Sequence record: NC_049825.1
DNA: 49,530 bases
Direction: 5' to 3' (one strand)
Source: Escherichia phage grams
The notes under the pieces were generated by a model. The model searched no databases. It saw only the letters and a list, made by a program, of their open reading frames with translations, and had not been told where the DNA came from. The position numbers and the translations under genes were made by a program. Of the stretch, positions 2,782-40,257 are shown piece after piece (positions within the stretch are counted from its first letter, which is position 1; each line of letters starts with the position of its first letter).

Positions 2782-3050
2782 TTCTTGATCTCCTCAGCAA
2801 TAAACTTCAGGACTTTGCGCAAAAACACTTCATTATTGATGGTCGCTGGCAATTCCTCTTTCACTTCTTGCGGCAGATAGATATTGCCGTGCCATGTCAA
2901 ACAATCGTAGTTGATACGATAAGAGCAAAGCCATTCGCAATCGTTATCCGCTTCCCAAATGCAGAGTTGCAGAACATCACCGAAATCCTCAACAGTCAGA
3001 TCCAGACCGTGACGCTTTGCAAAGTTGAAAGTGGTTTTGCTGATGTTCAT
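2778..3050 (-). CDS. hypothetical protein (90 aa), first gene of leftward operon
   Basis: ORF with RBS CAGGAGAAAGCAA; preceded by motif promoter at 3089..3134. Confidence 0.55.
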   Translation of the reverse strand: MNISKTTFNFAKRHGLDLTVEDFGDVLQLCIWEADNDCEWLCSYRINYDCLTWHGNIYLPQEVKEELPATINNEVFLRKVLKFIAEEIKK

Positions 3051-3088: not shown

Positions 3089-3134
3089 ATTATGCCGAAT
3101 CCAGTCAGGCACGTTTTAACAAAAAGTGCTATTT
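3089..3134 (-). promoter_or_regulatory. conserved 22-bp element plus -10 (CATAAT), leftward
   Basis: Minus-strand reading AAATAGCACTTTTTGTTAAAAC-N18-CATAAT. Confidence 0.55.
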
Positions 3135-3786
3135 GCCTACTGGTCATTATTCCATCTATTCCATTAATCAGGAATAACAGGAATAACTCATTCGCGATCA
3201 CCTGGATTGTGAGACTTTGAGTTTGGTCAATTTTAATCAGTTGATTAACTTTTTGTGTGGAGGGGATAGAGAAACGCGGCCCTCTTGCGTCCTTTCCAGC
3301 AATCCTGGCGCGCGCATCTGTTATTTCTGTTCCCCGCGTTATCTCAATCAAGCCTCCGCACTTTGAGATAACGCAATCAGCGTTCATAAACAAAAAGAAC
3401 AAAATAAAATTTATATATATACACATAAAATCAATAAGTTAGTTATATATGTATTTATATTTGTTATTTACTGTTATGCTTGTTCTGTGGGTATATGGTA
3501 GTGTGGTATTGTTTTTGGTGATATGTATGTGTGGTTGTATACTTTTTAATCAATGGTAATGCGTGGTGATTTTTGTATGTATATATATGGGGTGGCGGCA
3601 ATCCTCCGTCAACCAGGTTAACAAGGTCATTTTTATCTGTTAAACCAATAACTTAACTTGTGCATTTTGTTATCTTTAAACGCGCCACACGCCAAAAGTC
3701 GTTATTAAAACACAAAATATATTGACATGTAGGAAAGGCAAGGCAATAATGCATCCAGTTTAAACGCAACAAAAGGAGTAGATGCC
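3135..3786. repeat. AT-rich non-coding region A (diverged paralogue of 32268..32692)
   Basis: No convincing ORF; shares AATCAATAAGTTAGT, GGTGATTTTT and TTTTGTTATCT blocks with region B. Confidence 0.6.
3722..3750 (+). promoter_or_regulatory. canonical sigma70 promoter (candidate early promoter)
   Basis: TTGACA-N17-AATAAT, about 36 bp upstream of ATG 3787. Confidence 0.6.
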
Positions 3787-4275
3787 ATGAGCGAAGAAAA
3801 TATTAGCACCATGTCGCGCAGTGAGTTCTGCGATATGCTTCGCACCCTGGGCGCGGCAATTGGTAGCGGTGAACGTAATAATGTATTCATGCCAGCACTT
3901 TTCTTGTGCGCTAACGTGGAGAACGGCGACGCAATTACAGCATCGTACATGCGCCAGGTTGTAAACCGCGTACCAGAAGTGAAGCAAAAAGGCGTGATCA
4001 GCATTAAGCGAAAGGTGACTGATGAGGGTGATGGCTTTGTGTTTACGCTCACAGAAGCCAAAAGCAAGCCACGCGTTCTGACTGGTGAAGAAATCGACGA
4101 GATCGCAGAAAAGCGCGCAGAGAAGGCGGTAAGCAAAATCCTTAATCACCTTGTAAGCGTAATGCCAAATATCACAGACCTGGAAGGCGATAAACTTGCT
4201 GGAGCGTGTGAGGCTATCGGGCGCTACCAGGATATGATTCGTAAACTCGCTGGAGGAAAAGAGGTAAAATTCTAA
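3787..4275 (+). CDS. hypothetical early protein (162 aa)
   Basis: ORF with RBS AAAGGAG; first gene downstream of sigma70 promoter. Confidence 0.6.
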   Translation: MSEENISTMSRSEFCDMLRTLGAAIGSGERNNVFMPALFLCANVENGDAITASYMRQVVNRVPEVKQKGVISIKRKVTDEGDGFVFTLTEAKSKPRVLTGEEIDEIAEKRAEKAVSKILNHLVSVMPNITDLEGDKLAGACEAIGRYQDMIRKLAGGKEVKF

Positions 4276-8899: not shown

Positions 8900-9208
8900 A
8901 TGGCTAAAAGCAATCGTAAAATGTTGATTAACGCATTCGAAAAGGCAGCACTTGAGCGTGGTTGGAATGACTCATTTCACACAGCAAACTGTATCCGCCG
9001 TTACGGATTCAAGAATTGCCGCTCATGGGCGCGTGAAATGGCTTCATGGTATGATTTTGATGCTCATTATCTTGATATGGATTGCGCCATGGTTGAAATG
9101 GATTGCGCCATGGTTGAAATGATTGAGCAGGCCGCACTAGAGGATCGACCATTAACGCAATCTGATTTTGACGATTTTGTGCGCGATGAAATCTATTACA
9201 TGAGCTAA
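8900..9208 (+). CDS. hypothetical protein (102 aa) containing an in-frame 21-bp tandem duplication
   Basis: ATG at 8900 with RBS AAAGGAGGAAACAAA; duplicated peptide MDCAMVE. Confidence 0.5.
   Translation: MAKSNRKMLINAFEKAALERGWNDSFHTANCIRRYGFKNCRSWAREMASWYDFDAHYLDMDCAMVEMDCAMVEMIEQAALEDRPLTQSDFDDFVRDEIYYMS
9079..9120 (+). repeat. perfect 2 x 21-bp tandem direct repeat inside CDS
   Basis: GGATTGCGCCATGGTTGAAAT repeated twice. Confidence 0.9.
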
Positions 9209-27363: not shown

Positions 27364-30300
27364 ATGGCTGAAAATATGATAACTGGCAGTAAGGGTGGAT
27401 CATCAAAACCTTATGTTCCAAAAGAGATGGAAGATAACCTGATCTCAATCAATAAAATCAAAATCCTTCTTGCAGTTTCCGATGGCGAGTGCGATCCAGA
27501 TTTTACACTTCGCGATCTGTATCTTGATGATGTTCCGGTAATTGCAGACGACGGAACTGTTAACTACCAGGGTGTGAGCGCAGAGTTTCGCCCAGGCACA
27601 CAGACTCAAGATTACATCCAGGGATTTACTGACACATCAAGCGAAGTGACGCTGGCGCGTGATATTACTACGTCAAATCCTTATGTGATTTCCGTAACCA
27701 ACAAAACATTATCTGCTATCAGAATCAAAATGCTAATGCCAACAGGCATTAAGCAAGAGGATAACGGCGATCTTGTCGGCGTTAAGGTTACTTATGCTGT
27801 TGATATGGCTGTTGACGGAGACTCCTACAAAGAAGTATTGCGAGACACTATCGAAGGTAAAACTCGTTCCGGTTACGACAGAAGCAGAAGGATTGACCTT
27901 CCGTCATTCAATGATCGCGTATTACTTAGGGTTAGAAGGATTACGGCAGACAGCGCATCTTCTCGTGTTACTGATCTGATTAAGCTACAAAGTTACGCTG
28001 AGGTTATTGATGCAAAATTCCGTTATCCTCTGACTGGTCTTGTATACGTTGAATTTGACAGTGAGTTGTTTCCTAACCAGATCCCAAATATTTCAATCAA
28101 GAAAAAGTGGAAACTGATTAATGTACCAAGCAACTATGATCCTGTATCTCGAGAGTATAGAGGTTCATGGGATGGAACATTCAAAAAAGCCTGGTCAAAT
28201 AATCCAGCATGGGTGCTTTACGACATCATTACAAATCAGCGTTATGGATTAGATCAGAGAGAGCTTGGTGTACAGGTTGATAAGTGGAGTCTTTACGAAG
28301 CTGCGCAATACTGCGATCAGAAAGTTCCAGACGGAAAAGGAGGCACAGAGCCACGCTATCTATGTGATGTTGTTATCCAGAGTCAGATTGAGGCTTATCA
28401 GCTTATTCGTGACATTTGCTCTATCTTCCGTGGAATGAGCTTTTGGAATGGCGAGAGTTTGTCAATCGTTATTGATAAACCACGCGATCCATCTTACATC
28501 TTCACAAATGATAACGTTGTTGATGGTGATTTCCAGTATACGACGGCAAGCGAAAAGAGCATGTACACGCAGTGCAACGTGACGTTCGACGACGAACAAA
28601 ACATGTATCAACAGGACGTAGAGGGCGTATTCGACACCGAGGCAGCATTGCGCTTTGGATACAATCCTACAAGCATAACCGCGATCGGATGTACACGCAG
28701 GAGTGAGGCTAATCGGCGCGGTCGATGGATACTAAAAACCAACTTGCGCAGCACTACGGTAAACTTTGCTACTGGACTGGAAGGCATGATCCCATCAATA
28801 GGTGATGTGATTGCTATTGCTGACAATTTTCACAGCAGCAACCTTAAATTAAACCTATCAGGGCGCGTGATGGAAGTTTCCGGCTTGCAGGTGTTCGTTC
28901 CGTTTAAGATTGACGCGCGACCAGGTGATTTCATTATCATCAACAAGCCGGACGGAAAGCCAGTTAAGCGCACAATCTCAAAAGTAAGCGATGACGGAAA
29001 AACCATTGAGCTAAACATTGGGTTTGGGTTTGAAGTTAAGCCGGATACAGTTTTTGCAATCGACCGCACTGACATTGCGTTGCAGCAATATGTTGTAACG
29101 AGTATCGGAAAAGGTGATGATGATGATGAATTTACATACTCCATCACGGCTGTTGAATATGACCCTAACAAATACGACGAGATTGATTACGGAGTAAACA
29201 TTGACGACAGGCCAACTTCAATTGTCCAGCCTGACACGATGGCAGCACCGGAAAACGTGCAAATATCCTCATACTCGCGAATTGTCCAGGGTGCAAGCGT
29301 TGAAACAATGGTTGTGTCGTGGGATAAAGTACCTTACGCATCACTGTATGAAATGCAATGGCGAAAAGGTGATGGCAACTGGCTGAATACACCACAGACC
29401 GCAAACAAAGAAATTGAGGTTGAAGGTATTTATTCAGGAAACTACCAGGTAAGGGTTAGATCTGTTTCTGCTTCAGGTTCTACGTCTCCGTGGTCCAGAA
29501 TTGTGACAGCTTCACTGACTGGTAAGGTAGGAGAGCCAGGCGCGCCAGTTAACTTAACCGCATCCGACAATGAAGTTTTTGGCATTCGTGTTAAGTGGGG
29601 GATGCCAGAAGGGAGCGGAGACACGGCATACATTGAGCTTCATCAGTCGCCAGATGGAACGGCTGAAAACTCAAGCCTGCTAACGCTGATCCCGTATCCA
29701 CAATATGAATACTGGCATGGAACTCTTCCGGCTGGTCATGTTGTATGGTATCGGATCAGGAGCGTAGACAGGATCGGCAACGTTTCCGGTTGGACTGATT
29801 TTGTTAGAGGTATGGCTTCAGATGATGTGGAGGCTGTTTTAGGAGATATTCTTGATAAGATTTTTGATACTGAAGCAGGTCAGGATCTGAAAGAGAACGC
29901 CATTGACAGTGCAAACAAGATAAAGGACCAGGCGCAAGCAATCATCCAGAATGCTCTTGCTAATGATGCTGATATTAAGTGGACGCGAGTACAAAACGGA
30001 AAGAGAAAGGCTGAATATGGTCACGCTCTTGAGCTTATAGCCACAGAGACTGAGGCACGAGTTACGCAGATTGAAGAATTGAGGGCGTCAATCGACGAGG
30101 ATATTGTTTCAAGCATAAAGACAGTGCAGGAGGCTATTGCCACAGAATCTGAAACGCGAGCAACTCAAATAAACGCTTTGGATTCAAAATTTACAACTGA
30201 AATTGACGGTGTAAAACGCGATACAGCAGCAAGCATTAATCAGGTGAATCAAACAATTGCCAACGAATCTGAAGCGAGAGCGCAGGCCGTTAACGCTCTT

Positions 30301-32222: not shown

Positions 32223-32267
32223 ACTATACACGATCTTACAGCAGGCGTTTAGCAAAAAGTGCTATTC
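32223..32267 (-). promoter_or_regulatory. conserved 22-bp element plus -10 (TATAGT), leftward
   Basis: GAATAGCACTTTTTGCTAAACG-N17-TATAGT on minus strand, upstream of lipoprotein gene. Confidence 0.5.
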
Positions 32268-32692
32268 TGTTCTTTTTGTTCTCCTGCGTTCTCAAATCTG
32301 CGGAGGCGTAAATTTAGAGCAAAAAGTGAGCAATAACAGAGCGCGATATATACAGATAAATATATATACATACATATAAATCAATAAGTTAGTAGTATAT
32401 ATATTAATGTTTGTTCTTTATTGTTATCTGTGTTTTGTGTGATTTTGTGTGCCTGGTGATTTTTCTGTGATTATGCATGTGTCAGTGGTTATGTGTGTCT
32501 ATATATCTATATCCGGCGCAAATTGAGGAACAAGAGAACAAAAAGACAACAAAGATATTTATCAATCACTTACATGTAAGTTTTGTTATCTAAGTTGGCG
32601 AGAACGTTGTTAAAACAGAAAAAACAAAATAACTATTGACTAAACGCATCAAATAGCTACAATGCAGGCATACCAACCAATGAGGGTAAATC
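32268..32692. repeat. AT-rich non-coding region B (diverged paralogue of 3135..3786)
   Basis: Shares AATCAATAAGTTAGT, GGTGATTTTT, TTTTGTTATCT and GTTGTTAAAAC blocks with region A. Confidence 0.6.
32636..32663 (+). promoter_or_regulatory. canonical sigma70 promoter (candidate early promoter)
   Basis: TTGACT-N16-TACAAT about 30 bp upstream of ATG 32693. Confidence 0.6.
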
Positions 32693-33754
32693 ATGAATAA
32701 GTTTATGGCGTACACCAGCGAAGAAATGAGTAATGAGCTTTATCACGATCCAGAAGCGTGGACGGCTGATTATGTTAGTGGATCAAGCCTGGCCGAGATT
32801 TACAGCACATGCCCGGCGGCGTGGAAGTTCAAGCCTCGTGACGATAAGAGCAAGGCGCTAGTTTTTGGTACACAGTCGCATACCAACTTTGAAAGCAATG
32901 AGCTTTTCGAAAAAACCTATCGACGCGCGCCAGCGCCAGAAGACTTTAAGGATCTGATAACTAGCCAAACTGCGCTTGCCGCAAAACTGAAATCATTTGG
33001 CCTGAAAGGTACAACCGGAAAGACTTATCCAGACCTTATCAAAATGATGGTCGATTGCGGAGAAGACCTTAACGTCATGTGGTTAATCGACATGATCGCA
33101 GAAAGCCAGGCCAGGGCCGACGGAGTGCAGTTAATCGACGCTAAAGACTACGACGCTTGCGTTGCAATGCGCCAGGTTCTGGAATCAATACCTGAACATA
33201 ACGCATGTATGAATAGCAAGACAGCACAACGTGAATTATCGTTGTTCGGTGAAATCAACGGCGTAAAAGTCAAAGTGCGATGCGATCACGTTGACGTAAC
33301 AAAGAACGTAACAGCAACTTTGATTGATGGTTACGATGAAAAAGGTCAACCGATTTGCCGCGATATTATTTATCCAGAGGCGATTGTGATCACTGACTAC
33401 AAAACAACAATGAGCGCTAATCCGGTTGAGTTTATGCGCCTGGCTTACAATCACGGCTATTATTTGAAAATGGCGTTGCAATGTGATTTATTCAGGAAAG
33501 CGTATCCAGAAGAAAAGCGACCTATAGTTGTGCGCCTGTTAGCGCAAGAGAAGAAAGAGCCTTATTTGCCGTTGGCTTTCCGCATGAACAGCGAGCAGTT
33601 GAAGATCGGGCGCATTCAGTACATGAGCGTAATTAACCAGTTTGCCATGTGCCAGCAGCATGACGTTTGGCCTTCGTATTCAAACGGTGAGCCGGAGGTT
33701 TGTCTTGATACTCCTGATTGGGTGCGCCGCCAGTTTAAGCAATATCTTATTTAA
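32693..33754 (+). CDS. PD-(D/E)XK exonuclease (recombination exonuclease candidate)
   Basis: 353 aa; RCDHVD and ITDYKT blocks fit a D...(D/E)xK nuclease core; heads an Erf/SSB module. Confidence 0.55.
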   Translation: MNKFMAYTSEEMSNELYHDPEAWTADYVSGSSLAEIYSTCPAAWKFKPRDDKSKALVFGTQSHTNFESNELFEKTYRRAPAPEDFKDLITSQTALAAKLKSFGLKGTTGKTYPDLIKMMVDCGEDLNVMWLIDMIAESQARADGVQLIDAKDYDACVAMRQVLESIPEHNACMNSKTAQRELSLFGEINGVKVKVRCDHVDVTKNVTATLIDGYDEKGQPICRDIIYPEAIVITDYKTTMSANPVEFMRLAYNHGYYLKMALQCDLFRKAYPEEKRPIVVRLLAQEKKEPYLPLAFRMNSEQLKIGRIQYMSVINQFAMCQQHDVWPSYSNGEPEVCLDTPDWVRRQFKQYLI

Positions 33755-34860: not shown

Positions 34861-35313
34861 ATGCATATCATTACTGGTGAGATCCGAAAAGAGCCGCGAG
34901 TAAAGCAAATGCCTAACGGCAGCACACTTTATGTGGTTGAACTTTCAGAGCGATACAAAGATAAAGATGGAAACTGGCAATATACAAACTACAGTTTCTT
35001 TTTTAATGCGAAAACTGACGGACTTAATGGTTGGTATGCTGAGGCGTTCCAGGTTGGCAAGGTTATTTCTGTTTCTTGTGACACTCTGCGCATTGAAACG
35101 CGAGAATACAACGGAAAGATGTATTCAAGTTTAATGCCTGGTGGATTTGCAAATCTTATCTTCAGTCAGCGAGGGGAAAGCCAGCAACAATATCAGCAGC
35201 GAACGCAAGGAGGATGGGGCCAACCACAACAACAGAATCAACCGCAACAACCGCAACAGCCAAGACAAAGCAATCAACCTCCTATGGACTTTGACGACGA
35301 CATTCCTTTCTGA
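34861..35313 (+). CDS. ssb: single-stranded DNA-binding protein
   Basis: 150 aa; Gln/Pro-rich linker and acidic C-terminal tail DFDDDIPF. Confidence 0.8.
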   Translation: MHIITGEIRKEPRVKQMPNGSTLYVVELSERYKDKDGNWQYTNYSFFFNAKTDGLNGWYAEAFQVGKVISVSCDTLRIETREYNGKMYSSLMPGGFANLIFSQRGESQQQYQQRTQGGWGQPQQQNQPQQPQQPRQSNQPPMDFDDDIPF

Positions 35314-38796: not shown

Positions 38797-39729
38797 TTAG
38801 AGAAGTGATTCAGGCTTGAAAACCTTCCTCTCTATCCCTTGCCTGTAATTATCATTAATCGGCATCATAATTTCAAGTCCTCTTTCCTCGGCAGCAATGA
38901 TCGCGTCACGATCTGTGCTCTTACAGACAACTCGCATTCTTCTGTTGCCTTTATACCTGTAAGCTACAATCTCAATGTTAGTTGCATCAAAGCAGGCCCA
39001 AACCTCCTGACCAGTTGCAAGGTGAATATGTTGCGCATCAATCCAGTCAACGCAAAGATAGATAGTCTTATCTGTACTTCCGGTTCTAACAATCGACCCT
39101 CGCGTGTAGTCCTTTGCTAGAAAAGACTGATTACCTTCTTCATCAATGAAAAGCACATTGCACATTTCATCATCAATTTCATCTGAATGTACCAGGTAAC
39201 ATGGTAACGCGTGAATGTATCGACCATCTTTAACGCCGCATTCATAATAACCATCTTCAGGAGGATATATCCCTTCATAGGTGCTTAGCGGCGTGCGATC
39301 AAATTTTAGTGTTTTTGACATAACGCGCTCGCAGCATTCATGGCTTGCCTGTTTCCCGAACGAATAACCAGAATCACGAGATACTCGCTTATTTGCCTTG
39401 ATCCTATAGTCCTGCGGAACTTTTCCAAGAAATCGGCCCAAAATATTGATCACTTCGCTGTAAGGTTCTCCGGTTAGCTTCATGATCCAACCAATTCCGG
39501 TATCATTACCGCACACGTTGCAGATCGCACCGCCATCGCCTTTTTTATCGCCAAGTTTATCCGTCCATCTGAAGCGATCCTTTCCGCCGCAGTTGGGGCA
39601 AGATTGATGCTTGCCGTTAAAAACTTCATTTGGAAGACCGCAAATACTTTGTAGCGCCTCACGCCACAATCCTTGCATATATGGGAGAACATCTTCCTTT
39701 TGATAAACCATAAAGTTTTCGTTATTCAT
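38797..39729 (-). CDS. DNA primase (zinc-finger type)
   Basis: ATG at 39729 with RBS GAGGTG; [12 protein letters not shown]...CNVCG zinc-binding motif. Confidence 0.6.
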
Positions 39730-39783
39730 ATACACCTCAAACAAAAAGCCTGACAGATGATAACATCATGCCAGGCATTGTTT

Positions 39784-40257
39784 TTAGCAATTAGTGCTTT
39801 CAGGTTTATACAGGAATCCGCCAGGTTCATAATCTGACATTCTTACCACTCGCAACATTTCACGCTTATCACATCTCTTTGTGAGCGGTTTACCATTGGA
39901 ATCAAATCGCAGATCTGGACGGCAGAATGACGCGCGATAGCCTTGGCAGCCATATTTTTTGTAATCGTTATGCACCTTTTGAGCGCCAGCGGCTGAAATC
40001 ATACCGCGAACACGCCACTGATTTACAGTTTGCTGGCTAACGTTAAGACGTTTTGCCATTGCTGACACACTTCCGTAATACTCAATAAGGATATCAAGTC
40101 GCGCTTTTAGCCCGGCACGCACCTCATCTTTTAAAACATAGTATCCTGTAGGGCGCTTGCGCTTTTTCTTATCTTTACCCCGTCGAGTTCCGTTATTGCC
40201 ATTAATTGTGCGCTTGTCAATCTTTCCTGTTGATACTGCGATTCGCTGTTCTTTCAT
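39784..40257 (-). CDS. HTH DNA-binding regulator
   Basis: 157 aa; helix-turn-helix AKRLNVSQQTVNQWRVRG; basic N-terminal region; RBS GGAGAA. Confidence 0.6.
   Translation of the reverse strand: MKEQRIAVSTGKIDKRTINGNNGTRRGKDKKKRKRPTGYYVLKDEVRAGLKARLDILIEYYGSVSAMAKRLNVSQQTVNQWRVRGMISAAGAQKVHNDYKKYGCQGYRASFCRPDLRFDSNGKPLTKRCDKREMLRVVRMSDYEPGGFLYKPESTNC

What the first reader, a model, noticed from the sequence alone, without database searches (positions are those of the whole stretch)
3135..3786. Large AT-rich non-coding region A with a strong sigma70 promoter; one of two diverged copies
About 650 bp without a convincing ORF, between a leftward element-type promoter (3089..3134) and a canonical rightward promoter (TTGACA-N17-AATAAT, 3722..3750). 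It has runs of TATATG/TGTGG/GGTGAT short repeats and an IHF-consensus-like site (AATCAATAAGTTA, about 3427..3439). Region B (32268..32692) shares these blocks in the same order, so the two are diverged duplicates about 29 kb apart. Candidate functions are an early-promoter control region, a replication origin, a packaging site or a non-coding RNA locus.
Basis: seen in the sequence. Interest (0 to 1): 0.7.

Follow-up and report, generated by a model that had tools for sequence, protein, structure and literature searches.

The report
Packaging site plus origin-like promoter module
This non-coding stretch of a T1-like phage genome has two parts: a very conserved segment where DNA packaging probably starts, and an easily melted, repeat-flanked module ending in an early promoter, which six genomes from six genera of the family carry twice and which is the best candidate I found for the family's unknown replication origin.

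Summary
The window is a whole Hanrivervirus genome (T1-like, Drexlerviridae). Region A (3135-3786) has no gene, and about two thirds of it is a diverged copy of region B (alignment z about 29).

Region A is composite:
- 3089-3134: a leftward phage-type promoter.
- 3135-3315: an A-only segment, about 90% invariant among relatives and non-coding. Two independent GenBank records are cut inside it (3259|3260 and 3267|3268), and the T1, TLS and Rtp records start in the equivalent gap. It is probably the pac site.
- 3316-3720: the module shared with B.
- 3722-3750: a sigma70 promoter.

The A/B pairing recurs in six genomes from six genera (window, T1, TLS, Rtp, Rogue1, KP36). In each, the two cores are the two least stable DNA windows of the genome. 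They hold most (TA)n runs and are flanked by short lineage-specific repeats shared by A and B.

Best reading (about 0.4): replication origins coupled to early promoters. Main rival (about 0.33): lambda OL/OR-like promoter-operator regions. Sequence analysis alone cannot decide between them. ncRNA and protein-coding readings are not supported. I found no description of the pair in the papers I could search. This is a new member of known kinds and of moderate interest.

The parts
3089..3134 (-). Leftward phage-type promoter. The 21-nt family repeat (AAATAGCACTTTTTGTTAAAA on the minus strand, 3113-3134) is followed after 19 nt by CATAAT (3089-3094). It drives the gene that starts at 3050.
   Evidence: In 15 of 18 copies of the repeat in the genome, a -10-like hexamer lies 18-19 nt downstream (background 4.5%, P = 4e-18).
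3135..3315 (.). A-only module and probable pac (packaging initiation) region. It contains the nested inverted repeat TTATTCC.../...GGAATAA (3147-3186), a GATC at about 3196, and the palindrome TTAATCA-GT-TGATTAA (about 3233-3248, overlapping an IHF consensus at 3234-3246 on the minus strand). It also contains GTGTG|GAGGGGAT|AGAGAAAC, where two GenBank records are cut (3259|3260 and 3267|3268).
   Evidence: In 30-column windows across about window 3111-3320, 70-93% of columns are invariant among six Hanriverviruses, against 0-53% in the shared module and 53-60% in the upstream flank. It is not coding. It is single-copy in the genome. Record ends are shown. The T1, TLS, Rtp, Rogue1 and KP36 records start in the equivalent gap. 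TLS pac was mapped by restriction digests (PMC11447400).
3316..3385 (.). Left arm of the shared module. It holds TGTTAT-type short repeats (3319, 3337) and an inverted pair, GCGTTATCTCAA (3336-3347) and TTGAGATAACGC (3363-3374), around a GC box CCTCCG (3353-3358).
   Evidence: It aligns with B 32268-32340.
3386..3590 (.). AT-rich core, the least stable duplex in the genome together with the B core. (TA)n runs lie at about 3409-3421, 3443-3450 and 3578-3588. The IHF consensus AATCAATAAGTTA is at 3429-3441. T-rich TGTTAT/TGTTCT repeats lie at 3462-3486, followed by a TG-rich stretch.
   Evidence: windows 3386-3485 and 3387-3586 are about 5 sd above the genome mean; 16 of 23 genome TATATAT 7-mers lie in A and B.
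3599..3720 (.). Promoter-proximal part of the shared module. It holds GC box 2 (CAATCCTCCG, 3599-3608), a second IHF-like site (AACCAATAACTTA, 3643-3655, one mismatch), the conserved block ATTTTGTTATC (3664-3674), CGTTAT (3700-3705) and an A-rich tract just upstream of the -35.
   Evidence: These elements sit at nearly the same distance from the -35 hexamer in A and B: -54/-52, -119/-123 and -142/-136.
3722..3750 (+). Sigma70-type early promoter TTGACA-17-AATAAT. The ribosome-binding site AAGGAG lies at about 3774-3779, and the first gene (DUF7174 family) starts at 3787.
   Evidence: TTGACA and the -10 are conserved in six Hanriverviruses.
32223..32267 (-). Region B, leftward phage-type promoter. 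The family repeat lies at 32246-32267 and TATAGT at 32223-32228. It drives the cor gene.
32268..32635 (.). Region B, paralogue of the shared module. TGTTCT repeats lie at 32268-32292 and a GC box CGGAGG at 32301. The AT core is at 32346-32445, with IHF consensus sites at 32379-32391 and 32560-32572. Inverted arms lie at 32271-32286 and 32531-32546 (94% complementary).
   Evidence: It is highly conserved among six Hanriverviruses and alignable with TLS (mean column identity 88% over all seven sequences).
32636..32663 (+). Region B sigma70-type promoter TTGACT-16-TACAAT, driving recE, erf and ssb (recE starts at 32693).
39784..40257 (-). Tentative trans-acting partner. It is a 157-aa protein with a Cro-type helix-turn-helix, encoded directly upstream of the primase gene (38797-39744) on the same strand. 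It is a candidate binder of the lineage-specific repeats.
   Evidence: Counter-example.

Best explanation
Region A is a composite cis-acting control region of a T1-like phage, with four parts from left to right.

1. 3089-3134: the upstream half and -10 of a phage-specific leftward promoter.
2. 3135-3315: a single-copy, strongly conserved, palindrome-rich segment. This is probably the pac site, where terminase makes the first cut for headful packaging (around 3260-3268) and packages rightwards.
3. 3316-3720: a module of about 400 bp that the genome carries twice (A and B). It is built around a (TA)n-rich core of about 200 bp that is the most easily melted DNA in the genome. The core is flanked on both sides by short lineage-specific repeats and GC boxes.
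4. 3722-3750: a strong host-type early promoter, held in register with the module.

My preferred mechanism for the shared module is a replication origin. A phage-encoded sequence-specific protein would bind the flanking repeats. The candidate is the Cro-type HTH protein encoded just upstream of the primase gene on the same strand, in every genome examined. Host IHF or other bending proteins would help in this genus. Early transcription leaving the module would add negative supercoiling. The (TA)n core would then open, and the phage helicase and primase would be loaded. On this reading A and B are two origins, or one bipartite origin, about 29 kb apart, as in SPP1 (oriL and oriR) or P4 (ori and crr).

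Shown: the anatomy, the paralogy, its recurrence across the family, the duplex instability, the shared lineage-specific repeats, the absence of coding, and the record ends.

Inferred: pac function, protein binding, unwinding, and initiation of replication.
For: - Paralogy is real and recurs across the family. A versus B local-alignment z-scores are: window 29, Rtp 54, KP36 47, Rogue1 21, TLS 14, T1 11.
- In all six genomes the two least stable 100-bp windows are the A and B cores, 4-6 sd from the genome mean. The B cores of three further lineages are also the least stable window of their 20-kb loci.
- TATATAT 7-mers are almost confined to A and B: 16 of 23 in the window, 18 of 20 in T1, 15 of 17 in Rtp.
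- Short repeats are shared by A and B of one genome but absent from A and B of other genera. Examples: T1 TGTAACA 6 of 6 genome copies, Rtp TCCGCGG 6 of 6, KP36 ATCTTAC 13 of 19, window TTGTTCT 5 of 9. In the B-equivalent gap of L132, TGGGACAA has 8 of the 10 copies in its 20-kb locus.
- The repeats lie on both sides of the core.
- The phage encodes a primase, a DUF3987 helicase and a DEAD-type helicase, but no recognisable initiator. Published analyses found no origin in TLS or SU57 (PMC11447400, PMC7718038).
- B always lies in the replication and recombination gene cluster. In KP36, L132 and L133 it lies directly between primase and recE.
- The Cro-type protein upstream of primase has a hypervariable recognition helix, with 54 variants in 59 homologues and 1.96 bits of entropy against 0.84 bits in its N-terminal region. 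The protein fold is confirmed.
- For pac: the A-only module is single-copy, has 70-93% invariant columns and is non-coding. Two independent records are cut 8 bp apart inside it. The TLS record starts at the AGATTT assigned as pac after restriction mapping, 118 nt from the family repeat. The two Hanrivervirus cuts are 125 and 133 nt from it.
Against: - There is no direct evidence that replication starts here.
- The promoter-proximal elements of the module keep nearly the same distance to the -35 in A and B. In KP36 the B module moved with the recE operon and kept its orientation. A pure promoter-control element would show both features equally well.
- The only candidate binder has a Cro fold, which is typical of transcription regulators.
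- Its helix does not track the repeats perfectly. HCF1 has TLS-type repeats but a very different helix.
- Inverted orientation of the repeats about the core is clear in TLS, HCF1 and window B, but the pooled test is not significant (odds ratio 1.19, p = 0.8).
- The perfect IHF consensus is not conserved outside Hanrivervirus. There are no good DnaA boxes and no GATC enrichment.
- GC skew follows gene orientation and says nothing independent.
- The pac assignment rests on record ends and on approximate mapping in relatives, not on read pile-ups for this phage.
Confidence: 0.4

Rival explanations
1. The shared module is only a promoter-operator or enhancer region, the T1-family analogue of lambda OL-PL and OR-PR. 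Two immediate-early promoters would be controlled in parallel by one phage HTH regulator that binds the lineage-specific repeats. The AT-rich, bendable core (with IHF in this genus) would let the upstream sites loop onto RNA polymerase or build a silencing complex for early shut-off. No replication role is needed.
For: - Both copies end in a strong sigma70 promoter.
- Proximal elements keep their register with the -35 hexamer: -54/-52, -119/-123, -142/-136.
- In KP36 the module travels with the recE operon and keeps its orientation.
- The candidate binder has a Cro fold (Xfaso1 and N15 Cro).
- Its recognition helix is hypervariable, as in immunity-specific repressors.
- KP36 has a 16-bp palindrome, GTAAGAT-GA-ATCTTAC, of operator type.
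Against: - In the window no repeat overlaps the -35 or -10. The nearest one ends about 16 bp upstream of the -35.
- Up to 13 repeats spread over about 400 bp, and a 200-bp core that is the least stable DNA in each of six genomes, is far more than known Cro or CI operator regions need.
- The intergenic region between the Cro-like gene and the helicase gene lacks the repeats, so there is no sign of autoregulation.
- The helix and repeat correspondence fails for HCF1 versus TLS.
Confidence: 0.33
2. The whole of A, and B too, serves packaging. The shared module would be part of terminase recognition, and B would be a second pac site.
For: Physical or record ends fall in A. SU57 authors reported several possible ends from PhageTerm (PMC7718038). 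AT-rich bendable DNA with IHF sites is used at lambda cos and P1 pac (from my own knowledge).
Against: - The segment holding the record ends (3135-3315) is exactly the part that B lacks.
- None of the 56 records that match B has a record end inside the match.
- T1 and TLS show a single sub-molar pac fragment (PMC11447400).
- The conserved part is the A-only module, whereas the shared module of A is mosaic among close relatives.
Confidence: 0.05
3. The region encodes a small protein or a non-coding RNA.
For: A frame of about 60 codons on the minus strand stays open across 3135-3320 in five of six relatives, and one record annotates it. The A-only module folds slightly better than shuffles (z = -2.1 and -2.2).
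Against: - The open frame has no conserved start or stop, and Henu8 has an in-frame stop.
- Its 7 synonymous to 12 non-synonymous changes match the other frames.
- No Pfam or PHROGs family matches any of the six ORFs tested in the region.
- Rfam gives no hit in the window.
- The shared module folds like shuffles.
- The modest structure signal in the A-only module is explained by DNA palindromes.
Confidence: 0.04
4. The region is a neutral remnant: an old duplication of AT-rich spacer, or a small mobile element with inverted ends, without present function.
For: The shared part of A is mosaic and replaced by other alleles in close relatives. Inverted arms flank the B core.
Against: - The pairing is kept at the same two syntenic positions in six genera of five lineages.
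- Composition, repeat sharing and promoter linkage are all conserved.
- B is highly conserved among Hanriverviruses and alignable between genera.
- These genomes are about 92% coding (PMC4070988), so about 1 kb of spacer is costly.
Confidence: 0.05

Closest known systems
Bacillus phage SPP1 oriL and oriR (bound by G38P). Recalled from my own knowledge, not tested here.
   Same: SPP1 is a pac-type, headful-packaging siphovirus of about 45 kb. It has two separate origin regions tens of kb apart. Each has repeated binding sites for one phage protein next to an AT-rich region.
   Different: There is no sequence or protein homology. SPP1 oriL lies inside the initiator gene. Here both copies are intergenic, promoter-linked and far more (TA)n-rich. 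Nothing here is experimentally shown.
Satellite phage P4 ori plus crr (alpha protein, type I iteron TGTTCACC). Recalled from my own knowledge.
   Same: P4 has two distant cis elements that share short iterons. Its primase has the same Zn-ribbon family as the window's primase (PF08273). TLS and HCF1 repeats read TGTTCAC.
   Different: The window's primase is a stand-alone protein of 315 aa. Sequence searches found no relative of P4 alpha's origin-binding domain (searches gave no PDB match). The 7-mer resemblance may be chance. Other genera use unrelated repeats.
Lambda OL-PL and OR-PR operator-promoter regions with Cro and CI
   Same: Lambda has two early promoters that are diverged duplicates of each other. 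They carry short sites specific to the phage's own HTH protein. The window encodes a Cro-fold protein.
   Different: Lambda operators overlap the promoters and span about 80 bp. Here the repeats span about 400 bp, do not overlap the -35 or -10, and surround a 200-bp unwinding-prone core.
Iteron plus DUE origins (lambda ori, plasmid origins, SaPI ori with iterons on both sides of an AT-rich stretch)
   Same: An AT-rich, easily melted segment is flanked by multiple replicon-specific short repeats. This genus also has sites for a host bending protein (IHF consensus).
   Different: No initiator has been identified. The repeats are short (6-9 bp) and irregularly spaced. The module is duplicated and in register with a promoter.
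pac regions of T1 and TLS (Drexlerviridae), and of P22 and P1
   Same: The position is the same: the divergent gap at the genome 'start', about 120-130 nt from the family repeat. Like P1 pac, the segment is rich in palindromes and short repeats and has a GATC and an IHF consensus.
   Different: The cut site has not been mapped for this phage. The TLS pac sequence was assigned by weak similarity to P22 (AGATTT), and that motif is not conserved here.

Membership tests
Iteron/DUE-type replication origin | An AT-rich DNA-unwinding element | tested here: met
   The A and B cores are the two least stable 100-bp windows in all six genomes, 4-6 sd from the mean.
Iteron/DUE-type replication origin | Several copies of a replicon-specific binding repeat next to the unwinding element | tested here: inconclusive
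   Lineage-specific 6-9-mers are concentrated in A and B on both sides of the core. They are short and irregularly spaced, and their orientation pattern is not significant when pooled. Binding cannot be tested here.
Iteron/DUE-type replication origin | An initiator protein encoded by the replicon that recognises the repeats | tested here: inconclusive
   A Cro-fold protein upstream of primase has a hypervariable recognition helix. HCF1 versus TLS is a counter-example.
Iteron/DUE-type replication origin | Replication starts there, and the element is required in cis | not testable with these tools
   This needs marker-frequency analysis, 2D gels or plasmid amplification assays.
pac site of a headful-packaging phage | Virion DNA ends of the first headful map to it | tested here: inconclusive
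   Two independent records are cut at 3259|3260 and 3267|3268. The T1, TLS and Rtp records start in the same gap, and TLS pac was mapped by restriction digests. No reads are available for this phage.
pac site of a headful-packaging phage | Single copy in the genome | tested here: met
   The best alignment of 3135-3315 to the rest of the genome scores 16, against 15.0 +/- 1.4 for shuffles.
pac site of a headful-packaging phage | Recognised and cut by the small and large terminase subunits | not testable with these tools
   No binding or cleavage data exist. Strong sequence conservation without coding signal is consistent with this.
Sigma70 promoter | -35 and -10 hexamers with a 16-18 bp spacer, upstream of a gene | tested here: met
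   A scores 11 of 12 (3722-3750) and B scores 10 of 12 (32636-32663). Both are conserved in relatives. The transcription start site is not known.
Lambda-type operator-promoter duplicates | Operators overlap the core promoter | tested here: not met
   The nearest repeat (CGTTAT, 3700-3705) ends 16 bp upstream of the -35, and none lies between or over the hexamers in A or B.
Lambda-type operator-promoter duplicates | A phage Cro/CI-type HTH protein whose specificity co-varies with the sites | tested here: inconclusive
   The fold is confirmed. Eight helix types correspond to seven repeat types, with one conflict.
IHF binding site | A match to WATCAANNNNTTR with an AT-rich 5' flank | tested here: met
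   Sites at 3429-3441, 32379-32391, 32560-32572 and 3234-3246 (minus strand). Four of the 10 genome hits lie in 2.5% of the genome.
IHF binding site | Conserved in related phages, as expected if it is functionally required | tested here: not met
   The site is present in haarsle. TLS, Rogue1 and KP36 have no perfect site in A or B, and T1 and Rtp have one each.
Structured non-coding RNA | A match to a known family, or structure beyond composition | tested here: not met
   Rfam gives no hit. The shared module has z = -0.7 and -1.0.
Protein-coding gene | A conserved ORF with start, stop and purifying selection, or family membership | tested here: not met

The most novel reading that the evidence does not exclude
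A and B are the long-sought replication origins of the T1 family. They would work as a pair, either as two origins like SPP1 or as one bipartite origin with DNA looping like P4. They would be fired by early transcription and recognised by the hypervariable Cro-fold protein encoded with the primase. The fast-evolving helix and the lineage-specific repeats would then define replicon specificity among co-infecting T1-like phages. Placing one origin directly beside pac would couple the start of replication to the start of packaging.
Probability: 0.15. Interest if true: 0.7.

Novelty: new member of a known kind. Interest (0 to 1): 0.5.

Why it matters
T1 is one of the seven classical T phages, yet its replication origin has never been located. 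Recent genome papers on TLS and SU57 state that none was found (PMC11447400, PMC7718038). The work here gives two precise, recurrent candidate loci and a candidate binding protein, which makes the question directly testable. It also narrows the probable pac cut in Hanriverviruses to about 10 bp. That is useful for genome orientation, for understanding generalised transduction by T1-like phages, and for engineering them. If the promoter-control reading is right instead, the same loci are the switch that governs immediate-early expression in a family of notorious laboratory and fermentation contaminants.

Tried and rejected
- Scanning IMG/VR for the shared 16-mer AAATCAATAAGTTAGT gave mostly chance matches in unrelated contigs. 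The motif is not informative on its own.
- GC skew: the cumulative minimum lies at A, but skew follows gene orientation everywhere, so it gives no independent origin signal.
- DnaA boxes and GATC clustering: neither is enriched.
- RNA readings: Rfam, tRNA search and folding z-scores were all negative.
- Coding readings: the open minus-strand frame in 3135-3320 was rejected on start and stop inconsistency and neutral substitution pattern. No family matched.
- Homology of the primase or the DUF3987 helicase to a solved origin-binding domain such as P4 alpha: no PDB sequence match. The P4 parallel stays an analogy.
- Autoregulatory sites: the intergenic region between the Cro-like gene and the helicase gene carries the family repeat but none of the A/B repeats.
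- Rule that repeats point in opposite directions on the two sides of the core: it holds for TLS, HCF1 and window B, but the pooled test gives odds ratio 1.19 and p = 0.8.
- One-to-one match between recognition helix and repeat: it holds for most lineages but fails for HCF1 versus TLS.
- Plasmid collection: no plasmid carries the module, so no natural mini-replicon is available.
- Literature: no accessible paper describes the paired modules. The T1 (2004) and Rtp (2006) genome papers could not be read, so prior mention there cannot be excluded.
Full report
WHAT THE WINDOW IS. The 49,530-base window is a complete genome of a T1-like siphovirus. Region A and region B are each 90-99% identical to dozens of phages of the genus Hanrivervirus (Drexlerviridae, Tempevirinae), such as Henu8, aalborv, aaroes and pSf-1. 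Region A (3135-3786) lies between a leftward block of small genes that ends at 3050 and a rightward early operon that starts at 3787 with a DUF7174 gene. Region B (32268-32692) lies between the leftward cor gene and the rightward recE-erf-ssb operon.

CHECKING THE OBSERVATION.
- The rightward promoter TTGACA-17-AATAAT is at 3722-3750. It scores 11 of 12, and only four sites in the genome score that high.
- The leftward 'element-type promoter' is a copy of a 21-nt repeat found 18 times in the genome.
- The IHF-like site is at 3429-3441.
- A and B align with a local score of 61, against 13.4 +/- 1.6 for dinucleotide shuffles (z = 29). For the cores alone z = 18. B is the only other place in the genome that resembles the A core.
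- One correction: the duplication covers 3316-3786 only. The stretch 3135-3315 has no counterpart in B or elsewhere.

NOT A GENE, NOT A KNOWN RNA. None of the six mechanical ORFs tested in 2989-3601 matches Pfam or PHROGs. One minus-strand frame stays open over 3135-3320 in most relatives and is annotated in one record. It lacks a conserved start and stop, Henu8 has an in-frame stop, and its substitutions are 7 synonymous to 12 non-synonymous, like the other five frames. Rfam and tRNA searches are empty. As RNA, the shared module folds no better than shuffles (z = -0.7 and -1.0). The A-only part gives z of about -2, which its DNA palindromes explain.

THE A-ONLY SEGMENT IS PROBABLY PAC. Among six Hanriverviruses, 30-column windows across about window 3111-3320 have 70-93% invariant columns. 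Most of the family repeat at 3113-3134 falls within this conserved stretch. The flanking gene start has 53-60%, and the shared module has 0-53%. This is conservation of DNA, not of protein.

The archetype records of T1, TLS, Rtp, Rogue1 and KP36 all begin inside the equivalent divergent gap. T1 annotates its 2.8-kb terminal repeat from position 1. For TLS the pac cut was located by restriction mapping and then assigned to AGATTT (PMC11447400). The TLS record starts exactly there, 118 nt after the family repeat.

Two Hanrivervirus records from different laboratories are cut 8 bp apart in the window's GTGTG|GAGGGGAT|AGAGAAAC. These are haarsle at 3259|3260 and G29-2 at 3267|3268. The cuts lie 125 and 133 nt after the repeat. 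By my own estimate, not a computed result, two of about 45 distinct phages cut within 10 bp by chance is very unlikely. I infer that these are physical ends. The segment holds nested inverted repeats, a GATC, and a palindrome that overlaps an IHF consensus. This make-up recalls P1 pac, though that comparison is from memory only.

THE SHARED MODULE RECURS ACROSS THE FAMILY. Comparing the 'start' gap with the gap upstream of recE within each genome gives these z-scores: 54 in Rtp, 47 in KP36, 21 in Rogue1, 14 in TLS and 11 in T1. In all six genomes the two least stable 100-bp duplex windows are these two cores, 4-6 sd from the genome mean. TATATAT 7-mers are nearly confined to them: 16 of 23 in the window, 18 of 20 in T1, 15 of 17 in Rtp.

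A four-way alignment of window and TLS shows a common order of elements:
- left short repeats;
- a GC box;
- an AACAAAAAGAACAAA block;
- (TA)n runs with the IHF-like site;
- T-rich repeats;
- a TG-rich stretch;
- (TA)n again;
- a second GC box;
- right repeats;
- a second IHF-like site;
- ATTTTGTTATC;
- an A-rich tract;
- the -35 hexamer.

In the window the proximal elements sit at nearly the same distance from the -35 in A and B: -54/-52, -119/-123 and -142/-136. In KP36 the recE operon is inverted, and B has moved with it in the same relative orientation. In KP36 and two metagenomic lineages, B lies directly between primase and recE.

LINEAGE-SPECIFIC REPEATS SHARED BY A AND B. Each genus has its own short repeat, concentrated in both copies and absent from A and B of other genera:
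- T1: TGTAACA, 6 of 6 genome copies.
- Rtp: TCCGCGG, 6 of 6.
- KP36: ATCTTAC, 13 of 19, including 16-bp palindromes.
- TLS: GTGAACA, 4 of 8.
- Window: TTGTTCT, 5 of 9, and GTTATCT, 5 of 15.

Further lineages use TGGGACAAA or AAAGTGCGG. This points to a phage-encoded, fast-evolving sequence-specific binder acting on both copies.

The one obvious candidate is the 157-aa protein encoded just upstream of primase on the same strand in every genome examined. It has a Cro-type HTH, shown by Pfam and PDB sequence hits and by an AlphaFold model (mean pLDDT 87) whose best structural matches are the Xfaso1 and N15 Cro proteins. Its recognition helix is the most variable part, at 1.96 bits against 0.84 bits in the N-terminal region, with 54 helix variants among 59 homologues. 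By contrast, the 21-nt family repeat is conserved family-wide. A variable helix therefore fits the variable repeats better than it fits that conserved element.

Two caveats apply. HCF1 carries TLS-type repeats with a very different helix. The window and haarsle share an identical protein although their A modules are different alleles. Both alleles do keep TGTTAT repeats.

MECHANISM. Two readings fit the anatomy.

(1) Origin. An unwinding core is flanked by replicon-specific sites, in a phage that has its own primase and helicases but no identified initiator or origin (PMC11447400; PMC7718038). The module sits in or beside the replication gene cluster and is duplicated, as in SPP1 or P4.

(2) Promoter-operator region, like lambda OL/OR. 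Two early promoters are under one phage HTH protein.

In favour of (1):
- The size of the module and its extreme instability, conserved as a physical property across genera.
- The repeats lie on both sides of the core rather than on the promoter. None overlaps the -35 or -10.
- The conserved gene order of binder followed by primase.

In favour of (2):
- The fixed register with the promoter.
- The orientation kept after the inversion in KP36.
- The Cro fold of the candidate binder.

The two readings are not exclusive, because origins activated by transcription are well known. I put the origin reading at about 0.4, pure promoter control at about 0.33, and pac for the A-only segment at about 0.6.

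Several supports I looked for failed. The IHF consensus is not conserved beyond this genus. There are no DnaA boxes and no GATC clusters. The inverted-orientation rule is not significant when pooled. GC skew is uninformative.

NOVELTY. The kinds of element involved are all known: pac site, iteron/DUE-type origin or operator region, and sigma70 promoter. What I could not find in the accessible literature is the paired, promoter-phased, (TA)n-cored module at two syntenic positions across Drexlerviridae, or any located origin for this family. The original T1 and Rtp genome papers were not readable here. I rate it a new member of known kinds, with moderate interest because it makes an old open question testable.

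Noticed in passing
window, 18 sites: 400, 2255, 3132, 4276, 5266, 6540, 7842, 9208, 13411, 17685, 21445, 27342, 32265, 40271, 42795, 43836, 47087, 49254: The family-wide 21-nt repeat (aaATAGCACnnnTTGnTAAAA) is followed exactly 18-19 nt later by a -10-like hexamer in 15 of 18 copies (background 4.5%, P = 4e-18). It therefore looks like the upstream half of a phage-specific promoter class, with its TTGTTA about 5 bp too far from the -10 for a normal -35. The TLS paper (PMC11447400) lists the function of this repeat as an open question. The three exceptions lie in the structural-gene block.
   Followed up: partly
window 39784-40257 (minus strand): The Cro-fold protein upstream of primase has 54 different recognition-helix sequences among 59 homologues. 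Its N-terminal 40 residues are predicted disordered (pLDDT 54-62) yet are almost invariant (DKRxxNGNNGTxRxxD). That pattern suggests a partner-binding peptide.
   Followed up: partly
window 3316-3720, compared with L119, L120 and L128: Among Hanriverviruses with an identical Cro-fold protein, the shared module of A is mosaic and is replaced by a different allele in pSf-1, vojen and haarsle. That allele has TGTTATC repeats and a TTCCGGCGTGGAA box. The A-only segment and the whole of B stay conserved. Breakpoints fall near 3331, 3499 and 3674.
   Followed up: partly
window 3350-3361 and 32299-32310: The GC box in the left arm is inverted between the two copies: GCCTCCGC in A and GCGGAGGC in B. 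The surrounding palindromic arms align either way.
   Followed up: no
GenBank MG0656xx records (hits H23-H28, H47-H51): About 20 records labelled 'Campylobacter phage' with host C. jejuni are 90-95% identical to E. coli Hanriverviruses over these regions. The host label looks doubtful, and contaminating coliphage is a possible cause.
   Followed up: no
PLSDB CP124687.1 (hit H121): A 49.6-kb 'plasmid' of Paraclostridium bifermentans encodes the Drexlerviridae Cro-fold protein at 68% identity. It is probably a T1-like phage genome deposited as a plasmid.
   Followed up: no
L117 (TLS) 29108-29175: The annotated TLS recE start (29118) lies upstream of the conserved TTGACT promoter that aligns with the window's B promoter. 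An ATG near 29170 fits the alignment better.
   Followed up: no
L127 (KP36) 34952-34987: In KP36 the annotated terminator of the primase operon is a hairpin whose stems are two copies of the lineage-specific repeat (GGTAAGA...TCTTACC). The same sequence may therefore serve both as terminator and as binding site.
   Followed up: no
window 9072-9125: There are 2.6 tandem copies of a 21-bp unit (TTGAAATGGATTGCGCCATGG, 94% matches) inside the early rightward operon.
   Followed up: no
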